From positions 9,257-73,256 of the forward strand of contig CAZMSN010000003.1 of assembly GCA_964569015.1 (NCBI GenBank): a DNA stretch of 64,000 nucleotides. The letters run 5' to 3'. The translations under genes were made by a program, and so were the position numbers. Every line of letters begins with the position of its first letter. Position 1 is the stretch's first letter. This DNA is from an uncultured Acidimicrobiaceae bacterium (GTDB lineage: Bacteria; Actinomycetota; Acidimicrobiia; Spongiisociales; UBA5794). A model generated the notes under the pieces. It ran no database searches, was not told the origin of the DNA, and worked only from the letters and a program-made list of their open reading frames with translations. Shown one piece after another: positions 32,658-47,075 of the stretch.

Positions 32658-32712
32658 CTGTCGGTCTCGGTGTCGAGACTCAGGAGTCGTCACCGCTAAC
32701 CTTCCCCGTCTA

Positions 32713-35325
32713 GTGGACAGCAACCGGATCAGGCGCATTTTCCTTGAATTCTTCGAGGCACGAGAGCACATCGTCGTGCCCAGCGCGTCGCTGATCCCGG
32801 TGGACCCGACCCTCCTCCTCACCAACGCCGGCATGGTTCCCTTCAAGCCCTACATGGTGAGGGAACAGACGCCGCCCTTCCCGCGAGCGGCCAGCGTGCA
32901 GAAGTGCGTCCGCACCGGGGACATCGACATCGTGGGGACGACCGCCCGCCACCTGACCTTCTTCGAGATGCTGGGCAACTTCAGCTTCGGCGACTACTTC
33001 AAAGAGAAGGCGATCCCGTGGTCCTATGACCTAGCGACGGAGGGCTTCGGCCTCGATCCGGAGCGGCTGTGGTTCACCGTGCACGAGACGGACAAGGAAG
33101 CCGAGGAGATCTGGATCGAGACCGTCGGCGTGCCGCCGGATCGGGTGCAACTCCGGGCCAAGGACAACTTCTGGCAGATGGGCGTTCCCGGCCCTTGTGG
33201 GCCCTCGTCGGAGATCTTCTACGACAGGGGAGCGCAGTACGGGCCCGACGGGGGTCCGATCGTCGACGAAGAGCGATTCGTGGAGTTCTGGAATCTCGTG
33301 TTCATGCAGAACGTGCAGGATGAGCCGTACCACGTCATCGGGGACCTTCCTGCGCGGAACATCGATACCGGGGCCGGCCTCGAGCGGGTCGCCGCCGTGC
33401 TCCAGGGCAAGGAGTCCGTCTTCGAGACGGATGTGGTGCGACCCATCATCGCGGCGGCGGAGGCGACGACCGGGGTGGCCTTCGGAGAGCGCGAGGGCGC
33501 CGACGTGAGCTTGCGGATCATGGCGGACCACGGCCGGGCAGTGACCTTCCTCATCTCCGATCGAGTGGTGCCATCCAATCAAGGGCGCGGCTACGTGTTG
33601 CGGCGCCTGCTCCGGCGGGCGGTCCGCCATGGGTTCCTGCTCGGGGCGGAGGATCTCGTCGTTCCTCGCCTCATCGAAGCCACCATCGACGTGATGAGCG
33701 AGGCGTACCCGGAGCTGGCGGACAAGCGGGATGCCATTGTCGAGATGGCCGAGCGAGAAGAGAGCGGATTCCGTCGGACGCTGGAGTCCGGCCACCAGCT
33801 CCTCGACCAGGAGCTGGAGGCGATGGAGCCCGGCGCCGTCTTCTCGGGCGCTACTGCGTTCAAGCTGCACGACACCTATGGGTTCCCGCGCGAACTGACC
33901 GAGGAGATCCTCTCCGAGAGGGGCATGCGGCTCGACATCGAGGAGTTCCGTCTCATGATGGAGGAGCAACGTGAGCGCGCCCGGCGGCACTCCCGTGGCG
34001 TGACGGCGCATGACGAGTACCAATCGCTGCTCGGCGGTGTCGAAGGAACCGAGTTCGTCGGGTATCAGCGCGAGGGAAGCCCCGGGCGCATCTTGGCGCT
34101 CGTACGCGAGGACGAGACCGTCGAGCGAGCCGACACGGGCCAAGAGGTTGAGGTGTTCCTCGATCGCACACCGTTCTACGCGGAATCCGGAGGCCAGATC
34201 GGCGACAGCGGAGTGGTGTCGACGCCGACGGGCCGAATCAGGATCGACGACACTCAGTTTGCCTTGCCGGGCGTGCACGGCCATCGCGGCACCGTCGCCT
34301 CGGGTCACGTTGCCGTGGGCCAAGATGCCATTGCCGAAGTGGATCACGACCGCCGGGAGCGCATTCGCAAGAACCACACCGGGACTCACCTACTGCATTG
34401 GGCATTGCGGGAGGTGGTCGGCGAGCATGTTCACCAGGCGGGATCGCACGTGGGATCCGATCGCCTGCGCTTCGATTTTGCTCACCACAGCTCGCTCGAT
34501 CCCGAGGAGCTGATCGAGGTGGAGCACGCGGTGAACGAGCGAGTCGTCGAGAACTCGGAGGTCACGACGCTCGAGACCAGCAAGGACGAAGCGGAGGCGA
34601 TGGGGGCGCTCGCCTTCTTCGGGGAGAAGTACGGTGACCGGGTCCGAGTCGTCAAGGCGGGCGACTACTCGACGGAGTTCTGCGGCGGGACCCATGTCTC
34701 CTCCACCGGCCAGATCGGCCCAGTGGTTGTGCTCTCGGAGGGATCGGTGGCTGCCAACACCCGGCGGGTCGAGGCTCTCACCGGCCTCGCTGCTTACGAG
34801 TACCTGAGTTCCCTGCGGCGCCAGCTCGACGATGTTGCGGGCAAGGTTAAAGCGCAGCCGGGACAGATCATGCATACCGTCGACGCTCTGCTGACGCGTC
34901 TCGACGAGCAAGAGGAGCGCCTCGAGCGGTTCGAGGCCCAGGCTCGAACGGGCATCGCCTCCGATCTGGTCGAGGGGGCCGAGAGCATCGGGAATAGCCG
35001 CCTGCTGGTCGCGGAACAGACCGACATGGCGCCGGGGCAGCTCCGGGAATTGGCGTTCCGGATCCGCGATCGTCTCGGATCCGGCATCGGAGTGCTCGGT
35101 TCCGGCCGTGACGGCAAGGCCGGCCTCCTCGTCTTCGTGTCGCCGGATCTCGTCGCGGAGGGAATCTCGGCGGGAGCGATCGTCAGAGCGGGCGCATCGA
35201 TCGTTGGGGGAGGGGGGAGTCCCGATCCGGAACTGGCCCAGGCCGGCGGCCCCCACGGCGAAAGTGTTGGCGAGGCCATCGAAGAAGCGGGCCGAGTGGC
35301 TCGGGAGGCGTTGAAGCAGCGATGA
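32713..35325 (+). CDS. alaS: Alanine--tRNA ligase
   Basis: 870 aa. GTG 32713 gives the N-terminus VDSNRIRRIFLEFFEAREH, matching AlaRS. Editing-domain HxxxH and a C-terminal DHHA1 domain are present. Confidence 0.95.
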   Translation: MDSNRIRRIFLEFFEAREHIVVPSASLIPVDPTLLLTNAGMVPFKPYMVREQTPPFPRAASVQKCVRTGDIDIVGTTARHLTFFEMLGNFSFGDYFKEKAIPWSYDLATEGFGLDPERLWFTVHETDKEAEEIWIETVGVPPDRVQLRAKDNFWQMGVPGPCGPSSEIFYDRGAQYGPDGGPIVDEERFVEFWNLVFMQNVQDEPYHVIGDLPARNIDTGAGLERVAAVLQGKESVFETDVVRPIIAAAEATTGVAFGEREGADVSLRIMADHGRAVTFLISDRVVPSNQGRGYVLRRLLRRAVRHGFLLGAEDLVVPRLIEATIDVMSEAYPELADKRDAIVEMAEREESGFRRTLESGHQLLDQELEAMEPGAVFSGATAFKLHDTYGFPRELTEEILSERGMRLDIEEFRLMMEEQRERARRHSRGVTAHDEYQSLLGGVEGTEFVGYQREGSPGRILALVREDETVERADTGQEVEVFLDRTPFYAESGGQIGDSGVVSTPTGRIRIDDTQFALPGVHGHRGTVASGHVAVGQDAIAEVDHDRRERIRKNHTGTHLLHWALREVVGEHVHQAGSHVGSDRLRFDFAHHSSLDPEELIEVEHAVNERVVENSEVTTLETSKDEAEAMGALAFFGEKYGDRVRVVKAGDYSTEFCGGTHVSSTGQIGPVVVLSEGSVAANTRRVEALTGLAAYEYLSSLRRQLDDVAGKVKAQPGQIMHTVDALLTRLDEQEERLERFEAQARTGIASDLVEGAESIGNSRLLVAEQTDMAPGQLRELAFRIRDRLGSGIGVLGSGRDGKAGLLVFVSPDLVAEGISAGAIVRAGASIVGGGGSPDPELAQAGGPHGESVGEAIEEAGRVAREALKQR

Positions 35326-35753
35326 TCCAGCACAGGGCGCTCGGTCTCGATCCGGGCACACGCCGCATCGGCGTCGCCTTGTCCGATGGCATGGGTATGA
35401 TCGCTCAGCCGCACATGGTGATCGACCGTCGTCGCGACGACGTTGCGGCGATCCTGCGCACGCTGTACGAGGAGCAAGGGGTGGGCGTTGTCGTCATCGG
35501 CCTTCCGGTATCGCTCTCCGGTGAGGAGGGTGCTGCAGCTCGGCAAGCCCGGGAGTTCGGAGCCACCGTGGAATCGATACTCGAGGTGAAAGTGGTCTAC
35601 CACGATGAGCGATTCACCACGGTGCAGGCCGAGAACGCGCTCTTGGAGGCGGGGATGCGACGAGCGGGAAGGCGTAAGAGGAGGGACAAGGTGGCGGCAG
35701 CCGTGATGCTGCAGAGCTTCCTCGATGCTCGCAATGCGGGGAACCGATGGTGA
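35322..35753 (+). CDS. ruvX: Holliday-junction resolvase-like RuvX (YqgF)
   Basis: 143 aa with the LGLDPGTRRIGVALSD N-terminus. ATGA overlap with alaS. Confidence 0.9.
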   Translation: MIQHRALGLDPGTRRIGVALSDGMGMIAQPHMVIDRRRDDVAAILRTLYEEQGVGVVVIGLPVSLSGEEGAAARQAREFGATVESILEVKVVYHDERFTTVQAENALLEAGMRRAGRRKRRDKVAAAVMLQSFLDARNAGNRW

Positions 35754-36874
35754 ACGAGCCCGCTGGAAACGGCGTCACCCCCCGGCCCAGGCTTCCGTGG
35801 TGGGTGTGGCGAATCATCCAGGTGGCGGCCGTCCTCATCGTGATCGTCGTCGTTTTCGCCGGGCTGAGAGCTGCGGCGGAGCGTTTCGCCGAGGCGGTGG
35901 GCACCCCGTCGGAGACGACCACGACCATTGCCGCCGGGGACGAGGTGACGGTGGAGATCCCCGCCGGGGCGTCGGCCCGGGTCATCGCCACGATTCTCGC
36001 GGACGAGGGCGTGATCGCCGACGGCGACGTTTTTGAGGATGCGGTGCGCGACCAGGGCGTGGCCGGCCGACTCAAGGCAGGAGAGTACACGCTGGTCACC
36101 GGTGGCGACATCGACGGGATCATCGAGGTTCTCGTCGCCGGTCCCGCCCCCATCGAGATCATGCGGCTCACCGTGATCGAGGGGTTGACCATCGACGAGA
36201 TGCTGTCGTCGCTCGCCAACCTGACCGATTTCACGGTAGAGGAGCTGGCGGAACCGCTGCTGGACGGCACGGTGACCTCGCCGTACCTTCCTGAATCGGC
36301 TCCCGAGGGGTCGGAGGAACTGACCCGTTGGGAAGGCCTCCTGGCGCCCGACACCTATGAGTTCCGGGCGGACGCCACTGCGGAGACAATCGTGAGCAAG
36401 CTGGCTCAGACCCTGACGGACCGGGTGAACGCGATCGATTGGACCGAACTCGAGGCGTTGGAGCTGACGCCCTATGACGGCCTGATCATCGCTTCGCTGA
36501 TCGAAGGCGAAGCCAAGCTCGACGAAGAGCGACCGATCATCGCCAGCGTGTTCACCAACCGGCTGGAACTCGGGATCGCACTCCAGAGCTGCGCCACGAT
36601 CATCTACGCACTTGGTGGGGACCGCAATGAGGTCCTCCTCGAGGACCTCGAGGTCGATTCGCCTTACAACACCTACCTCCATCCCGGCTTGCCACCGACC
36701 CCGATCGGAGGGGTTCGCAAAGCATCCCTCGAAGCCGCGGCGGCGCCGGCCGACACGGAATACCTGTACTTCGTGCTGATCGACAACGACGGCACCCACG
36801 GCTTCTCGGAGACGCTCGAGGAGCACAACGCGCTGAAGGAGGAGGCGAAGGCGAACGGAGTGCTGACACCGTGA
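35747..36874 (+). CDS. mltG: Endolytic murein transglycosylase MltG (YceG-like)
   Basis: An N-terminal TM helix followed by the YceG domain (SPYNTYLHPGLPPTPI). Confidence 0.85.
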   Translation: MVNEPAGNGVTPRPRLPWWVWRIIQVAAVLIVIVVVFAGLRAAAERFAEAVGTPSETTTTIAAGDEVTVEIPAGASARVIATILADEGVIADGDVFEDAVRDQGVAGRLKAGEYTLVTGGDIDGIIEVLVAGPAPIEIMRLTVIEGLTIDEMLSSLANLTDFTVEELAEPLLDGTVTSPYLPESAPEGSEELTRWEGLLAPDTYEFRADATAETIVSKLAQTLTDRVNAIDWTELEALELTPYDGLIIASLIEGEAKLDEERPIIASVFTNRLELGIALQSCATIIYALGGDRNEVLLEDLEVDSPYNTYLHPGLPPTPIGGVRKASLEAAAAPADTEYLYFVLIDNDGTHGFSETLEEHNALKEEAKANGVLTP

Positions 36875-37668
36875 GGCTCGCTGTATTCGGCGATCCGGTG
36901 GCTCATTCGCTCTCTCCTGCACTCCACCGTGCTGCACTGGACGCGGTCGGGATCCCCGGCAGCTACGAGGCAGTGCGCGTCGACGAAGCGGGCATGGCCG
37001 AGGCCGTCGCGAGCATCCGGCGTGGAACGCTCGATGGGGCGAACGTGACGATGCCGCACAAGGCACTGGCGCTGCACCTCGTCGACGAGGCGTCGTCTGA
37101 GGCGCGCCGGGCCGGGGCCGTCAACACTCTGGTGCGGGTCGAGGGCCGCGTTGTCGGTCACAACACCGACATTTCCGGGGTGGCGCAGGCGTGGCGGTGG
37201 GGTGGGCTGCCGGCAGCGGGGCCGGTGCTCATCCTGGGAGCGGGGGGAGCGGCCGCCGCGGCCGTGTTGGCTCTGCAGGATCACACGATCACGGTGGCGA
37301 CTCGCAGGCCGGAGGCGGGGCTGGCGCTCCTGGAGCGATTGGGTGTCGTCGGACGGGCCCGTGGCCTGGACGTGCCCGGTGGTGGGATGGTGGTCGTCAA
37401 CGCCACCCCGCTCGGCATGCAGGGCGAGGAGCTGCCATCGTGCGCCCTGGATGGGGCCGTCGGGCTGTTCGACATGGCATACGGCGCAACAACGACTCCG
37501 GCGGTGAGACGGGCGAAGGAACGAGGCATTCCGGTGGTGGCCGGGGAGCAGATGCTGCTGGGCCAGGCAATGGCGTCATTCCAGCTCTGGACCGGGCGTC
37601 GCGCACCTGAAGATGCCATGCGGCGAGCGCTCGATGCTTCACTGGCGAGTCGGGAGGCCTCGCATTGA
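36871..37668 (+). CDS. aroE: Shikimate dehydrogenase
   Basis: 265 aa: FGDPVAHSLSPALH, NVTMPHK and Rossmann GAGGAAAA. The GTG overlaps the mltG stop. Confidence 0.85.
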   Translation: MRLAVFGDPVAHSLSPALHRAALDAVGIPGSYEAVRVDEAGMAEAVASIRRGTLDGANVTMPHKALALHLVDEASSEARRAGAVNTLVRVEGRVVGHNTDISGVAQAWRWGGLPAAGPVLILGAGGAAAAAVLALQDHTITVATRRPEAGLALLERLGVVGRARGLDVPGGGMVVVNATPLGMQGEELPSCALDGAVGLFDMAYGATTTPAVRRAKERGIPVVAGEQMLLGQAMASFQLWTGRRAPEDAMRRALDASLASREASH

Positions 37669-37753
37669 ACCTCTCAAGGGCGCCGTCGAGGGGGCCGACA
37701 CGATGCAGAAGCGAGCTTGCGCGCTTTTCGCGCGAGTGATGTGAGGAGGTTCC

Positions 37754-39433
37754 TTGACCGGCGACGCCCGCCACCTGGGCACGATGCTCCTCGAAGAGGG
37801 GATGATCTCCAGCAAGGATCTCGAAGTCGCTGTCGCCAAACAGCGGACTTCCGGTCTTCCGCTGGGCAAGATCCTCATCGAGGAAGGCCTCGTGAACGAG
37901 GCCGATCTGGTGCGCACCCTGGCGCGGCAGATCGGTATCGAGTACGTGGACCTCAGCGAGATCGCCATCGACCCGGCCGCGGTGGCTCTCGTTCCGGAGT
38001 ACCTGCTCACGAGGTACCTCGTGCTCCCGATCGGTTTCGAGGACGATCGACTGGTGGTGGCGATGGCCGATCCCGCCAACGTGCTGGCCATCGACGATCT
38101 GCGGGCGGTGTCGGGCATGGGGATCTCCGCCAGGGTCGCTACTCGCACCGACCTCGAAGAGGCGATCCACCGCCAGCAGCGTCTCGACGACTCGGTCAGT
38201 GACCTCGCCGAACAGGCCGCCGAGGACAGACGCGAAGAAACGGACGTCAGCGGTCTCGAAGTGGCCGCCGAGGAAGCGCCGGTCGTCAAACTGATGAACA
38301 CCGTCATCGGACGGGCCGTCAACGAGCGCGCCTCAGATATTCACATCGAGCCAGGTGAACGCGACCTCAGGATCCGGTTCCGCATCGACGGTGTGCTGCA
38401 CGAGGTGATGTCGACGCCGCGAAGCATCGCCAATGCCGTCGTGAGTCGTATCAAGATCATGGCGGATCTCGACATCTCCGAGCGGCGGGTGCCTCAGGAC
38501 GGCAGAGTCGGCCTGCGAGTCGCGGGACGACCGGTCGACATCCGGGTCGCCACGCTGCCTTCCATCCACGGCGAGAAGGTCGTGCTCAGGATCCTCGACA
38601 AGGGCGCCAGCGTGGCGTCACTGGCGGATCTCGGCTTCCTGGACTACAACTTCAAGCGGTACGAATCGGCCTACAGCAAACCCTACGGGGCGATCCTGGT
38701 TACCGGTCCGACCGGCTCGGGCAAGACGACGACGCTCTACTCGACGCTGGCGGTGCTCAACCGCGAGGAAGTCAACATCATCACGGTGGAGGACCCGGTG
38801 GAGTATCGGCTGCCCGGGCTCACCCAGATGCAGGTCAATCGCAAGGCAGGCCTGCTGTTCTCCACGGCCCTCAAGTCGATCCTGCGCTCCGATCCCGACA
38901 TCATCCTCATCGGGGAGATCCGCGACGGGGAGACGGCGGCGATCGCAACGGAGGCGGCTCTGACCGGGCACCTCGTGCTCTCGACGCTGCACACCAACGA
39001 CGCCCCATCGGCGGTCGGGAGGCTCATTGACATGGGGGTTGAGCCGTTCCTCGTCAGCTCGTCACTCGACGCCGTCGTGGCGCAACGACTCGCCCGCACG
39101 CTGTGCGATCGCTGCAAGGTGCCGTACTCGCCGGAGCGTCGTGTGCTCGAGGACATCGGCTGGGAGTTCCACGGCTCGGACGAGATTCCTGAGCTGTACC
39201 GGGCTGAAGGCTGCCGGCATTGTGCCAACACGGGGTTCCGTGGCCGGACCAGCATCAACGAGATCATGTTGCTCAACGAAGAGATCCAGCACATGACGGT
39301 GGAACGCCATTCGGCCCGGGAGATCAAGAAGGCGGCCGTAGCCGAAGGGATGCGGACGCTCCGACAGGACGGGTTGGAGAAGGTGGCGCTCGGTGTGACC
39401 TCTCTGGAGGAGGTCCTCAGGGTCGTCGCGTGA
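37754..39433 (+). CDS. pilB: Type IV pilus assembly ATPase PilB (GspE family)
   Basis: 559 aa. An N-terminal T2SSE_N domain is followed by Walker A GPTGSGKTT, Asp/His boxes and a tetracysteine Zn motif (CDRC...CRHC). The TTG start follows GAGGAGG. Confidence 0.85.
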   Translation: MTGDARHLGTMLLEEGMISSKDLEVAVAKQRTSGLPLGKILIEEGLVNEADLVRTLARQIGIEYVDLSEIAIDPAAVALVPEYLLTRYLVLPIGFEDDRLVVAMADPANVLAIDDLRAVSGMGISARVATRTDLEEAIHRQQRLDDSVSDLAEQAAEDRREETDVSGLEVAAEEAPVVKLMNTVIGRAVNERASDIHIEPGERDLRIRFRIDGVLHEVMSTPRSIANAVVSRIKIMADLDISERRVPQDGRVGLRVAGRPVDIRVATLPSIHGEKVVLRILDKGASVASLADLGFLDYNFKRYESAYSKPYGAILVTGPTGSGKTTTLYSTLAVLNREEVNIITVEDPVEYRLPGLTQMQVNRKAGLLFSTALKSILRSDPDIILIGEIRDGETAAIATEAALTGHLVLSTLHTNDAPSAVGRLIDMGVEPFLVSSSLDAVVAQRLARTLCDRCKVPYSPERRVLEDIGWEFHGSDEIPELYRAEGCRHCANTGFRGRTSINEIMLLNEEIQHMTVERHSAREIKKAAVAEGMRTLRQDGLEKVALGVTSLEEVLRVVA

Positions 39434-39445
39434 CCTGCCGATAGT

Positions 39446-41095
39446 GTGCCGATGGTCACCAGCAACGTCGATCGGAAGCTGGGTGAGGTGCTCGTCAAAC
39501 GTCGCCTCCTGAGCCGGGATGACCTCGAATCCCATTTGGCTACCGTGAGTCGCACCGGCGAAGCGCTTCCCAATGTCTTGCTCGCCGCAGGGGGTGTGGA
39601 GCAGGTTGATCTCCTGCGAGTGGTATCGGAGCAGGTCGGTGTCGGTTTCGTCGATCTGGGGGCTCCCGACGCGCCCGTACCCGAGGCGGACGCACTGCAC
39701 ACCGTCCCCCAAACGCTGGCCGAGGAGCTCGGGGTGCTGCCGCTTCGATTGGAGACGGACGGGACACTCGTCGTCGCCATCGACAATCCCCTCGACGACG
39801 ATCGCCGCCGTGTTCTCGGGCAGGCGATCGACGGTGAGATCCAGATGATGCTGGCGCCGCGACCCTCTCTCCGTCGGGCCATCCTGCACGCCTACGACTC
39901 TCTGGACGGTCTCTCGCGGGCTCCCGGGGTTCCCGTCACCGGCTCTTCCGGCCCCGGCGATGTGCGAGGCGGGGAGCAGACTCGGGGCGGATCCGAAGAG
40001 GGAGACGATGGTGACGATGACGAGAGGATCTCGGTCACTGATCTCCTCCTCAGGCTGTTGAAGCGGAAGGGCTCCGATCTGCATCTGTCGGTGGGCGCCC
40101 CACCGATGCTGCGTATCGACGGATCCCTGGTGCCGCTCGACGACGTGGGAACGCTCGGGCCGTACCAGCTTCGCAAGATGATCTACGCCATTCTGACCGG
40201 CCGCCAGCGCGAGGAGCTGGAAGAGAACCTCGAGCTCGACCTGTCCTTTCCCATGAAGGACGTTGGCCGGTTCCGCGTCAACGTGTTCTTCCAACGAGAC
40301 TCGATCGGAGCCGTGTTGCGGGCGATTCCCAACCAGATCGTGCCGCTGTCCGATCTCGGGATCCCGCCCATCGTCGAAGGATTCGCCCAGCTCCAGCACG
40401 GCCTCGTTCTCGTGACCGGCCCGGCTGGTTGCGGCAAGTCGACCACGCTGGCGTCGATCGTTGACCTGATCAACACCTCCCGTGCTTGTCACGTCATCAC
40501 TCTCGAGGACCCGATCGAGTTCACACACCACCACAAGCGCTCGGTGGTCAATCAGCGAGAGATCGGCAGCGATACCCGGTCGTTCTCGATTGCGTTACGT
40601 CATGCGCTCCGGCAGGATCCCGACGTCATTCAGGTCGGCGAGATGCGAGACTTGGAGACGATCTCGACCGCGATCACCGCCGCCGAGACCGGCCACTTCA
40701 TCCTGGCGACTCTCCACACGCAGGATGCCCCCCAGTCGGTGGAGCGCATGATCGACGTGTTCCCATCCCAACAGCAGCGCCAGGTCCGGGTCCAACTCGC
40801 CAACTCGCTGCAGGCGGTGGTATCCCAGCAGCTGTTGCCGCGCGCCGACGGCACCGGACGGGCGGCGGCGGTGGAAGTGATGGTGGCGACCCCGGCGATT
40901 CGCAACCTGATCCGGGAGGGGAAGGTCCATCAGATCACGACTGCGATGCAATCGGGCGGCAAGTTTGGGATGGAGACGATGGACGACTCTCTGGCCCGGC
41001 TCGTCAGGACGGGTAAGGTCGCCTACGAGGTCGCCTACGAGCATGCCCACGATCCCGAGGGCTTCGAGAGCCTGACAAAGAGGCGGGCACGATGA
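39446..41095 (+). CDS. pilT: Twitching-motility retraction ATPase PilT with an N-terminal T2SSE_N-like extension
   Basis: The PilT core has Walker A GPAGCGKST and the PilT signature AIRNLIREGKVHQI. It is preceded by a ~150-aa domain resembling the PilB/GspE N-terminal domain and an acidic Gly-rich linker. 549 aa against ~345 for typical PilT. Confidence 0.85.
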   Translation: MPMVTSNVDRKLGEVLVKRRLLSRDDLESHLATVSRTGEALPNVLLAAGGVEQVDLLRVVSEQVGVGFVDLGAPDAPVPEADALHTVPQTLAEELGVLPLRLETDGTLVVAIDNPLDDDRRRVLGQAIDGEIQMMLAPRPSLRRAILHAYDSLDGLSRAPGVPVTGSSGPGDVRGGEQTRGGSEEGDDGDDDERISVTDLLLRLLKRKGSDLHLSVGAPPMLRIDGSLVPLDDVGTLGPYQLRKMIYAILTGRQREELEENLELDLSFPMKDVGRFRVNVFFQRDSIGAVLRAIPNQIVPLSDLGIPPIVEGFAQLQHGLVLVTGPAGCGKSTTLASIVDLINTSRACHVITLEDPIEFTHHHKRSVVNQREIGSDTRSFSIALRHALRQDPDVIQVGEMRDLETISTAITAAETGHFILATLHTQDAPQSVERMIDVFPSQQQRQVRVQLANSLQAVVSQQLLPRADGTGRAAAVEVMVATPAIRNLIREGKVHQITTAMQSGGKFGMETMDDSLARLVRTGKVAYEVAYEHAHDPEGFESLTKRRAR

Positions 41096-42336
41096 GCGCC
41101 ACCGAGGTCAGTTCCACCTACCGCTATCGCGTCCGGGACAAGACGGGGATGATCGTCTCGGGCGAGATCGACGCCAGCTCTCCGGCGAGGGTGGCCGAGA
41201 TGCTCCGTGAACAAGGACTGACACCGATCCACGTCGAGGCGAAATCGACCAGCTTGCTGCAACGCGAGATCAAGATCCCCGTCCTCGGCAATCGACTGAA
41301 GCCCCGTGACGTCGTCATCTTCAGCAGGCAGTTCGCCACCATGATCAACTCGGGGCTGTCGCTCATCAGAGCCCTCGGGGTGCTCGTCGAGCAGACCTCG
41401 AGCCCGGCGCTCGCGGAGATCCTCAGAGAGGTGCGCTCCGATGTCCGCGAGGGCGCCAGCCTGTCGTTTGCGATGGAGAAGCATCCCAAGGCGTTCAACG
41501 AGCTCTACGTGGCGATGGTCCGCGCCGGCGAAGTGGGTGGGGTGCTCGACGAGACGCTCAATCGCCTGGCCGGGATGCTCGAGGCCAACCTCAACCTCCG
41601 TTCCAAGGTTCGATCGGCGATGGCCTATCCAACCGTGATCGCCATCCTCATCACCGGAGTGACGGCGGCGATGATCATGTTCGTGGTGCCGATCTTCGCC
41701 AACATGTACACCGAGATCGATGAGGAAGCGGTGCTCCCGCTGCCGACGCGGATGCTCGTCTCCGTCTCTTCGACGGTGACACGCTGGTGGTTCGTGATCG
41801 TGGGCCTGATCGTGGCCGCGGTGTGGGGGCTGCGGCGCTGGCGCAGCACCGAGGCCGGGAGGCTCGCCCTCGACCGCCTCAAGCTGCGGATTCCGGTCTT
41901 CGGGCGCCTGGCGCACAAGACGGCGATGAGCCGCTTCTCGCGCACGATGGCGGTCCTGAGCGGAACCGGCGTGCCGATCCTGCAAGCGATCGACATCGTC
42001 GGCGACACAGCCGGCAACCAGGTGGTGACGAACGCCCTGGTGGACGTGAAGGAAGCGGTGCGCGCGGGCGAGTCGCTGGCGGAACCGCTGAGCCGCCACA
42101 AGGTGTTCCCCCCGATGGTGGTGCAGATGATGACGGTGGGGGAGGAGACGGGAGCGCTCGACGACATGCTCGCCAAGGTGTCCGACTTCTACGACCGCGA
42201 GGTCGACGACACCGTCAACGCCCTCACCAGCCTCATCGAGCCCTTGTTGATCGTGGTCATGGGGGGCGCCGTGGGAGGGATCCTCATCTCGCTCTACCTG
42301 CCGATTTTCAACCTCGCCCAGCTCGTCAACGGCTGA
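41092..42336 (+). CDS. pilC: Type IV pilus inner-membrane platform protein PilC (GspF family)
   Basis: 414 aa with two T2SSF repeats. ATGA overlap with pilT. Confidence 0.85.
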   Translation: MSATEVSSTYRYRVRDKTGMIVSGEIDASSPARVAEMLREQGLTPIHVEAKSTSLLQREIKIPVLGNRLKPRDVVIFSRQFATMINSGLSLIRALGVLVEQTSSPALAEILREVRSDVREGASLSFAMEKHPKAFNELYVAMVRAGEVGGVLDETLNRLAGMLEANLNLRSKVRSAMAYPTVIAILITGVTAAMIMFVVPIFANMYTEIDEEAVLPLPTRMLVSVSSTVTRWWFVIVGLIVAAVWGLRRWRSTEAGRLALDRLKLRIPVFGRLAHKTAMSRFSRTMAVLSGTGVPILQAIDIVGDTAGNQVVTNALVDVKEAVRAGESLAEPLSRHKVFPPMVVQMMTVGEETGALDDMLAKVSDFYDREVDDTVNALTSLIEPLLIVVMGGAVGGILISLYLPIFNLAQLVNG

Positions 42337-42401
42337 ACAGGCCCGTCGCGGTCAAATGGGCTCAACCGCGGAGGCATCCGGAGCCGATAACGGTTGGTGA
42401 G

Positions 42402-42418
42402 GGGTCGATGTGCGACCC
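42402..42418 (+). promoter_or_regulatory. Conserved 5'-UTR stem-loop upstream of pilin copy 1 (a second copy lies at 43090-43106 upstream of pilin copy 2)
   Basis: The motif is GGGTCG-N5-CGACCC. Both stem arms are conserved between the two paralogous leaders, while the loop differs (ATGTG vs AGATC). It sits about 22 nt upstream of each pilin ATG. Confidence 0.35.
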
Positions 42419-42440
42419 GGCGAGAGAAAGGTCCTTTCCT

Positions 42441-42992
42441 ATGCGATGGATGCGGGAGCGTCTCAGCAAGGAAGAGGGATTCACGCTCATCGAGTTCATG
42501 GTGGTGGTGCTGATCATGGCAGTGCTGGTGGCCATCGCCATTCCGTCCTTCCTCGGATTCCGTCATCAGGCCCAAGATCGCGCCGCGCAGAGCGATCTGC
42601 GGAACGCGTTGCTGGCCGAGAAGGCCGTCTACACCAATGACAGCTCGTTCACGGGCGTCGAGGCCGACCTGAAGGCGTGGGAACCCACGGTGGTGACCGC
42701 GGCGGCCTTGAGCACGGACGCGGTGTACGTGCAGTTCGCGGCGGCGACGTCTGATCAGGTGTGCCTCTCCCAGAAGAGCGACTCCGGGTCGACGTTCATG
42801 ATCTACGAGAACGGCACCGGCGGCACGTTCTATGCCGCCGCCGGCTCGGGCACCACGATCACGTGCCCGAGCGCCGCCGCCCCGACCCTGCCACCCAAGC
42901 AGGTCAGGGTCGCCTGGAGCGCCACCGGCTTCCCCGACGCTCCGGCGGGGAAGAAGGTCACCCCGACACCTGTCACGATCTCGCCGCTCTGA
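42441..42992 (+). CDS. pilA: Type IV major pilin (copy 1)
   Basis: Leader MRWMRERLSKEEG|FTLIEFMVVVLIMAVLVAIAIPSF is a canonical class III signal with Glu+5. Two Cys (disulfide D-region). 183 aa. The ribosome-binding site AGAGAAAGG lies upstream. Confidence 0.85.
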   Translation: MRWMRERLSKEEGFTLIEFMVVVLIMAVLVAIAIPSFLGFRHQAQDRAAQSDLRNALLAEKAVYTNDSSFTGVEADLKAWEPTVVTAAALSTDAVYVQFAAATSDQVCLSQKSDSGSTFMIYENGTGGTFYAAAGSGTTITCPSAAAPTLPPKQVRVAWSATGFPDAPAGKKVTPTPVTISPL

Positions 42993-43128
42993 GGGACGGG
43001 CCGGCGCCACGACGCCACTTGCCGTATGCGACGGTCAACGGAAAGTGGCTCAATCGGTGTGCGGTACCCGCCGATAACCATTGGGAAGAGGGTCGAGATC
43101 CGACCCCTTGAGAGAAAGGTCCATTCCT

Positions 43129-43614
43129 ATGCGATGGATGCGAGAGCGTCTCAGCAAGGAAGAGGGATTCACGCTCATCGAGCTCATGGTGGTGGTGCTG
43201 ATTATGGCAGTGCTAGTGGCCATCGCCATTCCCTCCTTCCTCGGATTCCGTCATCAAGCCCAAGATCGCGCCGCGCAGAGCGATCTGCGTAACGCGTTGC
43301 TGGCCGAGAAGGCGGTCTTCACGGCAACCAACGCGTTCACGGACGTCGAAGCCGAGCTGAAGGCGTGGGAGCCCACGGTGGTAACCGGCGCCGCCTTGAG
43401 CACGGACACGGTGTACGTGGAGTATGCCGCGGCCACGTCTGATCAGGTGTGCCTCTCCCAGGCGAGCGACTCCGGGTCGACGTTCATGGTCTACGAGAAC
43501 GGCACCGAAGGCACCTTCTACGGATCGGGCGACGCCATCACGTGCCCGAGCGCCGCCGCCCCGGCGATCCCGCCGGTGCAGGCGAGCGTCGACTGGAGCG
43601 AAACAGGCTGGTAG
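43129..43614 (+). CDS. pilA: Type IV major pilin (copy 2, tandem paralogue)
   Basis: About 90% nucleotide identity to copy 1 across the 5'-UTR and most of the CDS. Same leader MRWMRERLSKEEG|FTLIELMVV. 161 aa. Confidence 0.85.
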   Translation: MRWMRERLSKEEGFTLIELMVVVLIMAVLVAIAIPSFLGFRHQAQDRAAQSDLRNALLAEKAVFTATNAFTDVEAELKAWEPTVVTGAALSTDTVYVEYAAATSDQVCLSQASDSGSTFMVYENGTEGTFYGSGDAITCPSAAAPAIPPVQASVDWSETGW

Positions 43615-43643
43615 GAGGTTTTGTAAGAGCTTCGTGCTCACGA

Positions 43644-43676
43644 ACGAGGGGACGGACACGGAGTCCGTCCCCTCGT
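43644..43676 (+). terminator. Intrinsic-terminator-like hairpin downstream of pilin copy 2
   Basis: Perfect 14-bp GC-rich stem ACGAGGGGACGGAC / GTCCGTCCCCTCGT with a 5-nt loop, 30 nt after the pilin stop. There is no clear U-tract, which is common in high-GC genomes. Confidence 0.45.
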
Positions 43677-43741
43677 ACGCGTTCGCCACAATGCCGCGAC
43701 CCGCTCGGGTGCTTCTCTAGCCTGCGGCATCGGGAGGCACC

Positions 43742-44515
43742 ATGACCGTATCACTCGTCATTCTGGGGGCCCTGCTCGGGCTCGCCGCCGGCTCGTTCGT
43801 CAACGTGGTGGCGTACCGTGTCCCGCAGCGGGCTTCTCTTCTCCGTCCGCCGTCACACTGCCCTCAGTGCGAGCATGCGATTCTGCGCCGTGACCTGGTC
43901 CCGGTGCTGTCATGGGCGTTGCTGCGGGGGAGATGCCGCAATTGTGGGGGGCGCATCTCTATCCGGTACCCGCTGGTGGAGCTGGGCACGGCTCTGCTGT
44001 TCATAGCCACCGTGCTCGTGCTGGGAGCGGTGTGGGTGATACCGGCGTACTGGGTGTTCGTCACGGTGACCCTGGCGCTGGCCCTCATCGACATCGACCA
44101 CAAGCTGATCCCCAATCGGGTGCTCTTCCCCGGATCGGGGGTCGCCGCAGCCGCCCTGCTCGCGGGGGCGATCGCCGAAGGCACACCGGGATGGTGGCTG
44201 CGGGGAGTCGCCGGCGCGGCCGGGTACTTCGTCGGGTTGCTGCTGCTGGCGCTGATCGCGCCCCGGGGCGGCCTGGGCATGGGCGACGTCAAGCTGGCGC
44301 TGCTGCTCGGGCTGTTCCTGGGCTACCAGGCGTGGGAGCACGTTCTCCTCGGGGCGTTCATCGCGATCCTGCTCGGTGGGTTGGTCTCGGCGGTTCTCCT
44401 CCTCATGCGGAGGAAGGGGAGACAGGACACGATTCCCTTCGGTCCCTACCTCGTGGCCGGCGCCTACGTGACGATCGCATTCGGGGAGCAGATCCTCGAC
44501 TGGTACTTGGGCTAG
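43742..44515 (+). CDS. pilD: Prepilin peptidase (A24 family) PilD
   Basis: N-terminal Zn-binding CxxC...CxxC (CPQCEH...CRNCGG), polytopic membrane domain, and catalytic Asp residues (IDIDHKLIP, GMGDVKL). 257 aa. Confidence 0.9.
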   Translation: MTVSLVILGALLGLAAGSFVNVVAYRVPQRASLLRPPSHCPQCEHAILRRDLVPVLSWALLRGRCRNCGGRISIRYPLVELGTALLFIATVLVLGAVWVIPAYWVFVTVTLALALIDIDHKLIPNRVLFPGSGVAAAALLAGAIAEGTPGWWLRGVAGAAGYFVGLLLLALIAPRGGLGMGDVKLALLLGLFLGYQAWEHVLLGAFIAILLGGLVSAVLLLMRRKGRQDTIPFGPYLVAGAYVTIAFGEQILDWYLG

Positions 44516-44674
44516 GCATTCCCTCGATGTCGCCGCTGCGTAGGCCTGGTGACGACGGCAGCAGGTAGCCTGTCGTTGGCTCCTTCATGCAAAGGCGCTA
44601 CGATCAAAACGTGGATGGAATGACAGCGCTGTAATTTCATCCTTCGAGGGGCTCCACAGTCGAGCGGAGAATGC

Positions 44675-45739
44675 ATGGCCGTAACGGTTGGCCTTGATAT
44701 CGGCGGTAGTGCCGTGCGGGCCGCGGTTCTCGATTCCGGCAAGAATCGCTGGGTACTGCGCCGGTTTGCCGAGATGCCGCTGCCACCCGGGGCCGTCACC
44801 GCCGGCGAGGTGATCGACGAAGGGGCGGTGTCGGAAGCCATCGCCGCTCTGTGGCGGCGCTCCAAGCTCCCCAAGCGGCGGATCGTGGTCGGCCTCGCCA
44901 GCCAGCGGCTCGTCGTTCGCCAGGTCGACGTGCCGAACCTCGGCGCCGAGGAGTTGGCGGAGGCGCTGCCCTATCAGGTGCAGGATTCGATTCCGCTCGC
45001 CGTCGAGGACGCGGTGCTCGACTACGTCCCCCTCGAGGAGTTCATGACGGCCGACGGCGACCCCATGCAGTCGATTCTCGTGATCGCGGTGTACCGGGAG
45101 ATCGTCGACTCGATGATGCGCGTGCTCGCAGGAGCCAATCTCACGCCGACGGCGATCGATCTCCAGCCCTTCGGCCTGGTGCGGGCGATCTTCGGCATCG
45201 AGGCGAGCGTGGGAAGCCCGCTCCAAGCGCTGGTCGACATCGGGGCTTCGGTGACCCAGGTTGCAATCACTCGCGCCGGGACGGCGCGGTTCGTGCGCCT
45301 CTTGCCGCGCGGCGGAGAAGATTTCACGTCGGTGCTCGTCAACGGCCTGGAAATGGACGTTGACGACGCCGCCGACCTCAAGGCTCGACTCGGGGTACGC
45401 GCCGAAGGCACTCCGGCTGAGAGCGACCCGGATGCAGCGGCGCAGCGCCTGCTCACCCTGGAGGCCGACGAGTTGATCGATGACATCCGCGACTCGATCG
45501 ACTTCTTCCTCTCCCAATCCGCCGGCACCACTCTCGAGCGGCTGGTGGTGGCGGGCAACGGCGCCCGGCTCCCGCACCTCGCGAATCGTATGGCTCGGCT
45601 CATGGGCGTACAGGTCGAGCCGGCGAGGATTCTCGACATCGTCGAGGTGGGCCGGGTGGAGCTCGACGAGGATGAGATGCTCGAAGCCCAGCCGGTGCTA
45701 CCAACGGCCCTCGGACTGGCGCTGTGGGGGGAGGTCTGA
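44675..45739 (+). CDS. pilM: Type IV pilus assembly protein PilM (actin-like ATPase fold)
   Basis: 354 aa with the PilM/FtsA-like N-terminus VGLDIGGSAVRAAVL. Confidence 0.8.
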   Translation: MAVTVGLDIGGSAVRAAVLDSGKNRWVLRRFAEMPLPPGAVTAGEVIDEGAVSEAIAALWRRSKLPKRRIVVGLASQRLVVRQVDVPNLGAEELAEALPYQVQDSIPLAVEDAVLDYVPLEEFMTADGDPMQSILVIAVYREIVDSMMRVLAGANLTPTAIDLQPFGLVRAIFGIEASVGSPLQALVDIGASVTQVAITRAGTARFVRLLPRGGEDFTSVLVNGLEMDVDDAADLKARLGVRAEGTPAESDPDAAAQRLLTLEADELIDDIRDSIDFFLSQSAGTTLERLVVAGNGARLPHLANRMARLMGVQVEPARILDIVEVGRVELDEDEMLEAQPVLPTALGLALWGEV

Positions 45740-46356
45740 TGCGGCCCATCAACCTTCTCCCGCCCGAGGCCTTCGAGCGCAGCGCCGGCCGGCGGCGGTT
45801 CGTCCGGCTCGCCCTCATCGGCCTGCTTTACCTCGTACTGCTCGGACTCGTCTTCATCATCGCCCGGCGCGACACCGCCGACATTCGCCACGACGTCGAC
45901 GCCCAGCTCGCCGTCAACTCCAACCTGGAGGCGCAGCGGGCCGAGATGCAGGGCGCCGACGAGCTGGTGGATCGTTACGACCAGAACAGTGCGCTCCTGT
46001 CGGCGCTGCTGGTCTCCGACGTGTCGTGGGGACGGATACTCAATGACCTGGGGCGGATGATCCCCGATCGGATATGGCTCGCCAGTTTCCAGGGAAGGGT
46101 CGACAACGACCCGACCACGCCGGCGCACGGGACCATTCAGGTGAGCGGCACCGGATTCGACTTCGGAGACGTGGCTGCGTGGTTGCGGGCGCTGGACTCC
46201 GACCGCTTCCCCTCGGTGGCGGGCACCTGGGTATCGACCGTGGCAGGCGAGGAGATCAGCGACATCCCGGTGGTCGTCTTCGAGTCGCAGACCTCGCTGA
46301 CGGAGTCAGCGCTCACCGATCGTCTCGCCGAGCGCATTCCGGAGGTGGGGAGATGA
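45739..46356 (+). CDS. pilN: Type IV pilus assembly protein PilN
   Basis: The N-terminal conserved INLLP motif (MRPINLLPPE) is followed by one TM helix and a periplasmic/extracellular coiled-coil. TGATG overlap with pilM. Confidence 0.7.
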   Translation: MRPINLLPPEAFERSAGRRRFVRLALIGLLYLVLLGLVFIIARRDTADIRHDVDAQLAVNSNLEAQRAEMQGADELVDRYDQNSALLSALLVSDVSWGRILNDLGRMIPDRIWLASFQGRVDNDPTTPAHGTIQVSGTGFDFGDVAAWLRALDSDRFPSVAGTWVSTVAGEEISDIPVVVFESQTSLTESALTDRLAERIPEVGR

Positions 46357-47075
46357 AGCGCTCCACCATCTGGCTGCTCGTCGGAGGGCTCTTGGTGGGA
46401 ACCGTGGTGTGGTGGATGTTCCTGATGTCGCCGGAACGGTCCTCGGCCGCCGACGCCCGTGAAGAGCTGGAGATGGCCCAGCTTCGAGAGGCGACGATCC
46501 GCACCCAGATCGCTCAGCTCTCCGACATCATCGACACGGAGATCTCCTACCGGTTCGCCATCGGCGAGATGGAGACCGCGGTCCCGGTTCAGCCACAGGC
46601 AGACGTCTTCATCGAGGACCTCACCTTCCTCGCCGAGAGCACCGGGGTCGACATCTTCTCGTTCGCCCTCTCCCGGCCGACGCCGATCGAGTTCACGGCC
46701 GCAGGCCAGGTCGGGCTCGAGGCCTACGCGGTGACGGTGACCGTCTCCGCGCAAGGCCAGTACTTCGAGGTGCTCGGCTTCCTGTACGGCCTGGAGGCGA
46801 TGGACCGGCTGGTACGGGTCGATTCGATCGGCCTCAGTCCCGGGCAAGAGGCCGAGGAGCCGGAGCAGCCGCCCGAGGAGCCGGAGGAGGACGGCACCAC
46901 GACCACCACGACGACGATCGCCGAACCGCGCCTTCGTCCCGAGCCCGACGTGCTCGCGGTCCAGATAGCTATGAGGATCTTCACGCGCAGCGCGGCGGAC
47001 GTTCCCGACACTAGTTCGGTGCCTGCCGACGGTGGATCGGCCGAGATCGAGAGCGGCGAGGAGTCGACCCAATGA
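46353..47075 (+). CDS. pilO: Type IV pilus assembly protein PilO-like
   Basis: A single N-terminal TM helix, a coiled-coil, a ferredoxin-like core, and a C-terminal acidic/Pro plus poly-Thr tail. ATGA overlap with pilN. Assignment rests on position and topology. Confidence 0.6.
   Translation: MKRSTIWLLVGGLLVGTVVWWMFLMSPERSSAADAREELEMAQLREATIRTQIAQLSDIIDTEISYRFAIGEMETAVPVQPQADVFIEDLTFLAESTGVDIFSFALSRPTPIEFTAAGQVGLEAYAVTVTVSAQGQYFEVLGFLYGLEAMDRLVRVDSIGLSPGQEAEEPEQPPEEPEEDGTTTTTTTIAEPRLRPEPDVLAVQIAMRIFTRSAADVPDTSSVPADGGSAEIESGEESTQ

What the first reader, a model, noticed from the sequence alone, without database searches (positions are those of the whole stretch)
39446..41095. PilT retraction ATPase fused to an N-terminal PilB/GspE-type N-domain (549 aa)
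The C-terminal ~350 aa are a bona fide PilT: Walker A GPAGCGKST and the AIRNLIREGKVHQI signature. The first ~150 aa resemble the T2SSE_N/MshEN-like domain normally confined to extension ATPases such as PilB. An acidic Gly-rich linker (GSSGPGDVRGGEQTRGGSEEGDDGDDDE) joins the two parts. In some systems that N-domain is the c-di-GMP sensing module, so this retraction motor may be under the kind of second-messenger or partner-protein control usually exerted on the extension motor. The upstream PilB carries a paralogous N-domain.
Basis: partly seen in the sequence, partly recalled or inferred. Interest (0 to 1): 0.65.

Follow-up and report, generated by a model that had tools for sequence, protein, structure and literature searches.

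The report
PilT retraction motor with PilB-type N-domain
This Acidimicrobiia pilus-retraction motor (PilT) carries the N-terminal domain that textbooks say marks only pilus-extension motors; the fusion is real and conserved across the class, but its c-di-GMP-binding motif is degenerate, so it is more likely a docking or regulatory handle than a c-di-GMP sensor.

Summary
ORF 39446-41095 (+) encodes a 549-aa protein; the start is more likely the ATG at 39452, giving 547 aa. It has three parts: a complete MshEN/GSPII (N1D) domain (res 7-157), a disordered acidic linker (158-196), and a canonical PilT core (197-545).

The fusion is not an artefact:
- At least 115 protein clusters share it, as do all 31 Acidimicrobiia-type reference-genome loci recovered, always in the order mltG-aroE-pilB-pilT-pilC-pilins-pilD-pilMNO.
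- The N-domain is under purifying selection (dN/dS 0.13-0.27, against 0.11 for the core).

The c-di-GMP interpretation is weak for this protein:
- The MshE-type motif model scores below its cutoff (32 vs 38 bits).
- Key contacts are replaced: motif I turn Gly to Arg20 and Gln to Val34; motif II position 1 is Ala40 and Gly to Pro42.
- None of 115 clade members keeps all four polar-contact residues. The neighbouring PilB does.

I read the domain as a tethered docking or regulatory module. PilM is the leading candidate partner, but this is untested.

A separate metagenomic clade of MshEN-PilT fusions does keep perfect motifs. I found no paper describing the architecture, and a 2024 review uses the N1D to tell extension from retraction ATPases. 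Verdict: new variant of a known kind, moderate interest.

The parts
39446..41095 (+). pilT gene encoding the MshEN-linker-PilT fusion. 549 aa from GTG 39446; the more likely start is ATG 39452, giving 547 aa.
   Evidence: ORF list, TIGR01420 at 468 bits, exact database copy P0001 of 547 aa, orthologue alignment starting at residue 3.
39464..39637 (+). MshEN_N four-helix bundle (res 7-64), the sub-domain that binds c-di-GMP in MshE and PilF.
   Evidence: Helices 7-18, 24-37, 41-48 and 53-64 in the models. Aligns to 5HTL residues 5-62. dN/dS 0.13.
39476..39547 (+). Motif I, KLGEVLVKRRLLSRDDLESHLATV (res 11-34). Positions 1-3 (K-L-G) are kept. The turn Gly is Arg20 and the terminal Gln is Val34.
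   Evidence: Alignment to MshE, motif definitions, tally.
39563..39634 (+). Motif II, ALPNVLLAAGGVEQVDLLRVVSEQ (res 40-63). Position 1 is Ala, Gly3 is Pro42, and the terminal Gln63 is kept.
   Evidence: Family consensus is P-L-[A/P/T].
39638..39916 (+). MshEN_C / T2SSE_N1 sub-domain (res 65-157), homologous to the GspE N1 domain that binds GspL.
   Evidence: Pfam PF05157 at res 75-154, alpha/beta fold in the model, Foldseek hits to 5HTL, 7LKM and 2D27, dN/dS 0.27.
39917..40033 (+). Disordered Gly/Asp/Glu-rich linker (res 158-196).
   Evidence: pLDDT below 50 for res 158-192. Length varies from 11 to 42 aa and identity is 14% across orthologues. dN/dS 0.43.
40034..41080 (+). PilT core (N2D plus CTD, res 197-545) with Walker A at 40418-40444 and the AIRNLIRE signature at 40895-40936. 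It has no tetracysteine Zn motif.
37754..39433 (+). pilB, the extension ATPase. Its MshEN domain has near-canonical motifs (HLG..G..Q / PLG..G..Q) and it has a Cys4 Zn motif (C451, C454, C487, C490).
   Evidence: TIGR02538 at 625 bits, NF053729 at 62.9 bits against a cutoff of 38, Pfam, motif tally, cysteines.
41092..42336 (+). pilC platform protein. Its start overlaps the pilT stop (ATGA).
   Evidence: Two T2SSF matches, E 5.6e-67.
42441..42992 (+). Type IV pilin 1 (183 aa).
   Evidence: N_methyl motif, coordinates.
43129..43614 (+). Type IV pilin 2 (161 aa), a tandem paralogue whose first 18 residues are identical to pilin 1 (first 61 residues identical apart from F19L).
   Evidence: N_methyl motif, coordinates.
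43742..44515 (+). pilD prepilin peptidase.
   Evidence: A24_N_bact plus Peptidase_A24.
44675..45739 (+). pilM, the actin-like stator protein. It is the candidate docking partner of both N-domains.
   Evidence: PilM_2, E 3e-38. The docking role is inferred from the review read.
45724..46356 (+). pilN.
   Evidence: PilN Pfam match.
46353..47075 (+). pilO-like gene.
   Evidence: PilO Pfam match at 24.4 bits, cutoff 22.

Best explanation
This is the type IVa pilus retraction ATPase PilT of an Acidimicrobiia (Actinomycetota) bacterium. In this lineage PilT permanently carries a complete MshEN/GSPII (N1D) domain, tethered to the motor core by a 35-40-residue disordered acidic linker.

Shown here:
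- The two-module architecture.
- Its conservation across the class.
- Purifying selection on the N-domain.
- A canonical PilT core.
- Location in a pilB-pilT-pilC-pilin-pilD-pilMNO operon.
- Family-wide replacement of residues that make the polar contacts to c-di-GMP in MshE and PilF.

Inferred:
- The N-domain arose from a PilB-type N-domain in an ancestor of this clade.
- It has lost canonical c-di-GMP binding, as happened in XpsE, Thermus PilF GSPII-A and X. citri PilB-N.
- It now serves as a protein-interaction handle. It would dock the PilT hexamer to the cytoplasmic base of the pilus machine, or regulate that docking.
- PilM is the leading candidate partner, because the homologous GspE N1 domain binds the PilM homologue GspL. 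PilT and PilB would then compete for the machine through paralogous handles.
For: Architecture.

Conservation:
- At least 115 clusters of 507-605 aa, at 52-77% identity and 96-100% coverage, all carry PF05157 plus PF00437. The named ones are Acidimicrobiia.
- All 31 Acidimicrobiia-type loci recovered from the reference genomes have the N-domain and PilT core in one ORF, in the same gene order. L047 and L048 confirm the synteny.

Selection: dN/dS is 0.13 for the N-subdomain, 0.27 for the C-subdomain, 0.43 for the linker and 0.11 for the core.

Degenerate motif:
- NF053729 scores 32 bits against a cutoff of 38, while the adjacent PilB scores 62.9.
- Per-position tally: 0 of 115 clade members keep Gly3/Gly3/Gln24/Gln24.
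- Analogous substitutions (R38G, G40L, Q61V) abolish binding in XpsE.
- PilF GSPII-A, with one degenerate motif, does not bind, and it is the top structural match.

Origin: the clade's N-domains lie nearer to Acidimicrobiia PilB N-domains than to other fused PilT N-domains.

Docking role: the N1D is thought to contact the PilM stator, by analogy with GspE-GspL, and X. citri PilB-N binds the protein PilZ (PDB 7LKM among the hits).
Against: - No direct evidence for any binding partner.
- The comparison of PilT-N with PilB-N found that shared conserved positions are mostly structural (Leu, Gly, Pro, Ala). The helix after the DP motif differs between the two, so a common docking surface is not demonstrated.
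- The guanine-stacking Leu positions (L12, L27, L31, L41, L56, V60) and K-L-G of motif I remain conserved.
- The four-helix bundle is the most constrained part of the N-domain. That would also fit a retained small-ligand site.
- The phylogenies are neighbour-joining trees with short internal branches.
Confidence: 0.5

Rival explanations
1. The N-domain is still a nucleotide second-messenger sensor. It would bind c-di-GMP, or a related ligand, in a non-canonical way and gate retraction allosterically or by controlling recruitment.
For: - Motif I keeps K-L-G, preceded by a nearly invariant Arg10. Lys at position 1 is compatible with nanomolar binding in PilF GSPII-B.
- Five of the six guanine-stacking Leu positions are kept and the sixth is Val. 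The query keeps Gln63.
- NF053729 still detects the region, at 32 bits, E 8e-8.
- The four-helix bundle is as constrained as the ATPase core, dN/dS 0.13.
- Other lineages have MshEN-PilT fusions with perfect motifs: clade B, 23 of 23.
Against: - Pro42 replaces the motif II Gly whose backbone NH hydrogen-bonds the guanine. Val34 replaces a Gln that binds ribose and phosphate. Ala40 removes the stacking residue.
- The score is below the curated cutoff.
- 0 of 115 clade members keep all four polar contacts, and motif II position 3 is Ala, Pro or Thr in most members (A56, P24, T22, V7 of 116).
- XpsE and PilF GSPII-A lose binding with comparable changes.
Confidence: 0.25
2. The protein is not a retraction motor. 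It would be a second PilB-like extension ATPase, or a bifunctional motor, which is why it has an N1D.
For: It has the N1D that the literature uses as the extension-ATPase hallmark. It has weak partial matches to PilB and GspE models.
Against: - The PilB model scores 170 bits against a cutoff of 675, while PilT scores 468 against 319.
- The core is 53% identical to Geobacter PilT4 with TM 0.95, while PilB structures score about 99 bits.
- The AIRNLIRE signature is present and there is no tetracysteine Zn motif; the adjacent PilB has one.
- A separate full PilB lies immediately upstream.
Confidence: 0.05
3. The N-terminal extension is an annotation or assembly artefact (a wrong start codon or a fused gene fragment), or a decaying relic without function.
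For: There is no obvious Shine-Dalgarno sequence upstream of either candidate start. The linker is poorly conserved.
Against: - The same architecture is found on independent contigs from many samples and 31 species-level genomes.
- There is a single uninterrupted frame.
- The N-domain has dN/dS 0.13-0.27.
- The N-domain folds confidently, pLDDT 95.
- The only Met between the N-terminus and the core are M133/M134, inside the N-domain, and the next (M231) lies inside the PilT N2D.
Confidence: 0.03

Closest known systems
Canonical PilT retraction ATPases (Geobacter metallireducens PilT4 6OJX, P. aeruginosa PilT 3JVV, Aquifex PilT 2EWV)
   Same: The N2D+CTD core is 47-54% identical with TM 0.9-0.95. 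Walker A and the AIRNLIRE signature are present and there is no Zn motif. The gene sits in a pilB-pilT-pilC operon.
   Different: All characterised PilTs are about 350 aa and begin at the N2D. This one has 196 extra N-terminal residues forming a complete MshEN/N1D domain plus a linker.
V. cholerae MshE N-domain (MshEN, 5HTL) and Thermus PilF GSPII-B/C, the c-di-GMP-binding N1Ds of extension ATPases
   Same: Same two-subdomain fold, TM about 0.7. Same register of two 24-residue motifs separated by a 5-residue spacer. Most guanine-stacking Leu positions are kept.
   Different: It is attached to a retraction rather than an extension motor. Gly3 of motif II is Pro, Gln24 of motif I is Val, position 1 of motif II is Ala, and the turn Gly is Arg. 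It scores below the NF053729 cutoff.
Degenerate, non-c-di-GMP-binding N1D domains: Xanthomonas XpsE-N (2D27), X. citri PilB-N (binds PilZ, 7LKM), Thermus PilF GSPII-A (9G1W)
   Same: Same fold with a degenerated motif; these are the top structural neighbours. They are precedents for the domain acting as a protein-interaction module.
   Different: All of those sit on extension or secretion ATPases. The partner of the PilT-borne domain is unknown.
Clade B MshEN-PilT fusions (P0208 family, about 22 clusters, metagenomic diderm bacteria)
   Same: MshEN plus PilT-family core, TIGR01420 at 404 bits.
   Different: Their motifs are perfect (K/R-L-G...Q and R-L-G...Q in 23 of 23; NF053729 at 63 bits). 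The gene is a stand-alone pilT outside a pil operon. Both the core and the N-domain branch apart from the query's clade, so this is probably an independent fusion.

Membership tests
PilT/PilU family type IVa pilus ATPase (TIGR01420) | Full-length match to the family HMM above the curated cutoff, and better than to the PilB or GspE models | tested here: met
   468.4 bits against a cutoff of 319.1 over res 197-538. PilB TIGR02538 scores 170.6 against 675.
PilT/PilU family type IVa pilus ATPase (TIGR01420) | Walker A P-loop and the PilT-specific AIRNLIRE helix | tested here: met
   GPAGCGKST at res 325-333 and AIRNLIREGK at res 484-493.
PilT/PilU family type IVa pilus ATPase (TIGR01420) | PilT fold (N2D plus CTD) matching solved PilT structures | tested here: met
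   Foldseek TM 0.95, rmsd 1.6 A, 53% identity to 6OJX. phmmer 395 bits.
PilT/PilU family type IVa pilus ATPase (TIGR01420) | No N-terminal GSPII/N1D domain (the literature's discriminator from extension ATPases) | tested here: not met
   PF05157 plus a full MshEN fold at res 7-157. The rule is quoted. This is the point of the finding. It does not remove the protein from the sequence family.
PilT/PilU family type IVa pilus ATPase (TIGR01420) | Pilus retraction activity | not testable with these tools
   Needs genetics or biochemistry.
MshEN / T2SSE_N / GSPII domain (PF05157) | Pfam HMM above the gathering score | tested here: met
   44.7 bits against 23.1, res 75-154.
MshEN / T2SSE_N / GSPII domain (PF05157) | Four-helix bundle plus alpha/beta C-subdomain | tested here: met
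   Model pLDDT 95.4. TM 0.67-0.72 to 5HTL.
c-di-GMP-binding MshEN (NF053729; motif (R/K/L)LGxxhhxxGhhxxxxLxxxLxxQ twice) | Motif model above the curated cutoff | tested here: not met
   32.0 bits against a cutoff of 38. The neighbouring PilB scores 62.9.
c-di-GMP-binding MshEN (NF053729; motif (R/K/L)LGxxhhxxGhhxxxxLxxxLxxQ twice) | Gly3 and Gln24 in both motifs (polar contacts) and a stacking residue at position 1 | tested here: not met
   Motif I: K, G and V34. Motif II: A40, P42 and Q63. That is 2 of the 4 polar contacts. Clade-wide, 0 of 115 keep all 4.
c-di-GMP-binding MshEN (NF053729; motif (R/K/L)LGxxhhxxGhhxxxxLxxxLxxQ twice) | Measured c-di-GMP binding | not testable with these tools
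   ITC or DRaCALA required.
PilB/GspE extension or secretion ATPase | Family HMM above cutoff, and a tetracysteine Zn motif in the CTD | tested here: not met
   TIGR02538 at 170 against 675 and TIGR02533 at 140 against 630. Only two Cys (329, 348), whereas PilB has C451/C454/C487/C490.

The most novel reading that the evidence does not exclude
The N1D may not be an 'extension-motor' domain at all. It may be a general handle for engaging the pilus base, one that lineages can place on either motor. In Acidimicrobiia both antagonistic motors would compete for the machine through paralogous handles. The PilT handle might still respond to a nucleotide signal through a non-canonical site. In at least one other lineage (clade B, with perfect motifs) c-di-GMP would act directly on the retraction motor.
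Probability: 0.25. Interest if true: 0.75.

Novelty: new variant of a known kind. Interest (0 to 1): 0.55.

Why it matters
The field separates extension from retraction ATPases by the presence of the N1D/GSPII domain, and what that domain does is still unsettled: stator docking, force transmission, or c-di-GMP sensing. A whole bacterial class in which the retraction motor also carries it is a natural experiment.

- If the domain docks to PilM, it shows that the N1D is a recruitment handle and not part of the extension mechanism. It would also offer a simple model for how two motors compete for one machine in monoderm actinobacteria that lack PilZ and FimX.
- The contrast between degenerate (Acidimicrobiia) and canonical (clade B) versions gives matched test cases for whether c-di-GMP can directly control pilus retraction.

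Tried and rejected
- A diverse 24-sequence N-domain alignment could not be used to scan genomes because it had no conserved stretch. A tighter 7-sequence alignment worked, but its single pattern biases the survey towards the query's clade.
- Hits from Sumerlaeota, Planctomycetia, Fibrobacteraceae and Omnitrophota turned out to be PilB proteins, not fused PilTs: their core HMM scores are about 130 against more than 600.
- P0225 first looked like a fused PilT with a perfect motif. NCBIfam shows it is PilB-like over res 7-430, so it is a PilB/PilT chimera or misassembly, and I excluded it.
- Taxonomy of clade B stayed unresolved. Cluster look-ups gave no organism names. The contig's Rho protein is about 80% identical to Rho from several phyla.
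- A search for a conserved surface shared by PilT-N and PilB-N, as evidence for a common partner, was inconclusive.
- A crude GG[DE]EF scan of long window ORFs found nothing. This says little, because the window is only 64 kb.
- No second PilT core is present in the window.
- Most other N-terminal extensions on related PilT representatives have no Pfam domain and may be mis-called starts.
Full report
**Observation.** The window holds an uninterrupted ORF at 39446-41095 (+) of 549 codons starting with GTG. Codon 3 is an ATG (39452). The identical database protein P0001 is 547 aa from that ATG, and the closest orthologue aligns from that residue, so 547 aa is the likelier product.

**Anatomy.**
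- NCBIfam places residues 197-538 in the PilT/PilU family (TIGR01420, 468 bits, cutoff 319). The PilB and GspE models reach only 171 and 140 bits against cutoffs of 675 and 630.
- The core's best solved relatives are Geobacter PilT4, Aquifex, Pseudomonas and Thermus PilT (335-395 bits). PilB structures score about 99 bits.
- The full-length AlphaFold model (pLDDT 86) superposes on 6OJX with TM 0.95 at 53% identity.
- The protein has only two cysteines and lacks the tetracysteine Zn site of extension ATPases. The adjacent PilB has one, at C451/C454/C487/C490.
- Pfam finds MshEN (PF05157) at residues 75-154, 44.7 bits against a gathering score of 23.1.
- phmmer aligns residues 7-142 to the whole V. 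cholerae MshEN crystal structure, and also to all three GSPII domains of Thermus PilF.
- A model of residues 4-155 has pLDDT 95.4, with a four-helix bundle followed by an alpha/beta sub-domain. Its top structural matches are PilF GSPII-A, MshEN (TM 0.67/0.72), PilF GSPII-B, X. citri PilB-N and XpsE-N.
- Residues 158-192 are predicted disordered.

**The fusion is real and conserved.**
- A word-indexed search returned at least 115 clusters of 507-605 aa at 52-77% identity and 96-100% coverage. All carry PF05157 plus PF00437, and the named ones come from Acidimicrobiia or Actinomycetota MAGs.
- A pattern scan of GTDB species representatives gave 42 loci. In all 31 Acidimicrobiia-type loci the N-domain and a PilT core (HMM above 350 bits in all 31; 384-662 bits in the 22 loci tabulated) lie in one ORF. 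That ORF sits within the gene order mltG-aroE-pilB-pilT-pilC-pilD-pilM.
- Two long contigs, L047 (153 kb) and L048 (3.7 Mb), show the same order. It continues into aroC-aroK-aroB in L047, and as far as aroC at the edge of L048.
- Against the 77%-identical orthologue, dN/dS is 0.13 for the four-helix bundle, 0.27 for the C-subdomain, 0.43 for the linker and 0.11 for both core domains. dS is high (0.7-1.5), so the ratios are approximate.
- Across orthologues the linker varies from 11 to 42 residues with 14% identity.
- The N-domain is therefore a translated, selected part of the protein, tethered by a flexible spacer.

**c-di-GMP motif.** The motif is (R/K/L)LGxx(L/V/I)(L/V/I)xxG(L/V/I)(L/V/I)xxxxLxxxLxxQ, present twice with a 5-residue spacer. 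Gly3 and the following residue donate backbone NH groups to the guanine. Gln24 binds ribose and phosphate. Position 1 stacks on the base. Leu2, Leu17 and Leu21 form the stacking triads.
- The query has the correct register and spacer.
- Motif I reads K-L-G ... R20 (in place of the turn Gly) ... V34 (in place of Gln).
- Motif II reads A40-L-P42 ... G49 ... Q63.
- The curated MshE-type motif model scores 32.0 bits, below its 38-bit cutoff. The adjacent PilB scores 62.9.
- In the clade consensus, motif I is R-[Q/K]-L-G-E-L-L-V-D-R-R-L-L ... [A/E/V/S] and motif II is P-L-[A/P/T]-R-L-L-V ... [R/E/Q].
- None of 115 members keeps all four Gly3/Gln24 residues (mean 1.1 of 4).
- Comparable substitutions (R38G, G40L, Q61V among others) abolish binding in XpsE. 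PilF GSPII-A, with one degenerate motif, does not bind.
- Against complete loss, five of the six stacking Leu positions survive and the sixth is Val, an Arg immediately before motif I is nearly invariant, and the bundle is the most constrained part of the N-domain. A non-canonical ligand site cannot be excluded.

**Wider distribution and origin.**
- An exhaustive HMMER search of 1.84 billion cluster representatives was run. Among the 150 best PilT-core matches, 16 carry this N-domain, about 15 are tandem PilT-PilT fusions, 63 have other N-extensions and 50 are plain.
- Of the other extensions scanned with Pfam, a few carry HEAT, DUF4388 or PilZ domains and most have nothing recognisable.
- Fifteen of the 16 are true PilT-family proteins.
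- Five of them pass the c-di-GMP motif cutoff: P0125, P0136, P0186, P0194 and P0208.
- P0208 heads a second family of about 22 clusters whose motifs are perfect in 23 of 23 sequences. Its gene is a stand-alone pilT on a diderm-type contig. Its host phylum could not be resolved.
- In a neighbour-joining tree of cores, the query's clade plus P0125/126/130/131/132/139/145/178 forms one all-fused group. Clade B, P0194, P0136/P0171, P0148 and P0186 fall separately among plain PilTs.
- N-domains of the query's clade are closer to Acidimicrobiia PilB N-domains (distance 0.76) than to clade B PilT N-domains (0.87).
- This suggests several independent captures of a PilB-type N-domain. The internal branches are short, so the number of events is tentative.
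- Within Acidimicrobiia, PilB-N is far more conserved than PilT-N: mean distance 0.33 against 0.64, and 75 against 43 of 160 positions at 80% conservation or more.

**Mechanism.** The protein is a retraction motor with an extra, flexibly tethered N1D.
- By established knowledge, the C-subdomain is the homologue of the GspE N1 domain that binds GspL, and PilM is the GspL homologue.
- The PilB N1D is thought to contact the PilM stator, and extension and retraction ATPases compete for that socket.
- X. citri PilB-N shows that a degenerate N1D can instead bind a protein regulator.
- I therefore favour a docking or recruitment handle that has lost canonical c-di-GMP binding, with PilM (44675-45739) as the leading candidate partner.
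- This step is inference. The test for a conserved surface shared by PilT-N and PilB-N was inconclusive.

**Comparison with the literature.**
- The original MshEN paper lists many architectures but does not separate PilT-type from PilB-type ATPases.
- Full-text searches combining PilT with MshEN, GSPII, retraction or Acidimicrobiia found no description of this architecture.
- Subscription-only papers are not covered by these searches.
- Databases already annotate these proteins automatically as PilT/PilU family, so the sequences are known but the architecture is undescribed.

**Verdict.** The c-di-GMP-sensor reading is unlikely for this protein in its canonical form, though not excluded. I classify it as a new variant of a known kind, of moderate interest (0.55). 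It contradicts a field-level rule of thumb and gives a direct handle on what the N1D does.

Noticed in passing
P0208 family (P0282-P0302); locus L043 8001-9569: A separate clade of about 22 clusters of MshEN-PilT fusions has perfect c-di-GMP motifs in 23 of 23 sequences (NF053729 at 63 bits). The P0208 gene is a stand-alone pilT on a diderm-type contig with OEP and RND genes. These proteins are predicted to be c-di-GMP-binding retraction ATPases. The host phylum is unresolved.
   Followed up: partly
P0122-P0124, P0127, P0129, P0022, P0303-P0399: Tandem PilT-PilT fusions with two complete cores (about 710-770 aa) are abundant. Named examples include Chondromyces (Myxococcota), Oligoflexia and Lentisphaeria. 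P0121 (1024 aa) adds a DUF4388 N-domain.
   Followed up: no
Alignment A1 members: Among PilT-core proteins with other N-terminal extensions, two carry a PilZ domain, four carry HEAT repeats and two carry DUF4388. Most extensions have no Pfam match and may be low-complexity sequence or mis-called starts.
   Followed up: no
P0225: This 539-aa protein scores as PilB over res 7-430 (435 bits) and as PilT over res 180-528 (390 bits). It looks like a PilB/PilT chimera or a misassembly.
   Followed up: no
window 42441-42992 and 43129-43614: Two tandem type IV pilin genes share an identical leader and N-terminal helix (MRWMRERLSKEEGFTLIE...) and diverge in the C-terminal globular part. This looks like a recent duplication.
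   Followed up: no
window 32542-47075; L047, L048: The whole pil cluster (pilB to pilO) sits inside the alaS-ruvX-mltG-aroE ... aroC-aroK-aroB block. The arrangement is conserved across Acidimicrobiia.
   Followed up: partly
PilB ORFs in L001-L032: Only 4 of 26 Acidimicrobiia PilB N-domains keep all four Gly3/Gln24 contact residues. Many extension motors of this class may therefore also lack canonical c-di-GMP binding. The window's PilB is one that keeps them.
   Followed up: partly
window 47072-47611: A 179-aa ORF follows pilO. Its position matches the unannotated 170-176-aa gene between pilO and aroC in L047 and L048. It has no Pfam hit there, and it could be a lineage-specific pilus component.
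   Followed up: no
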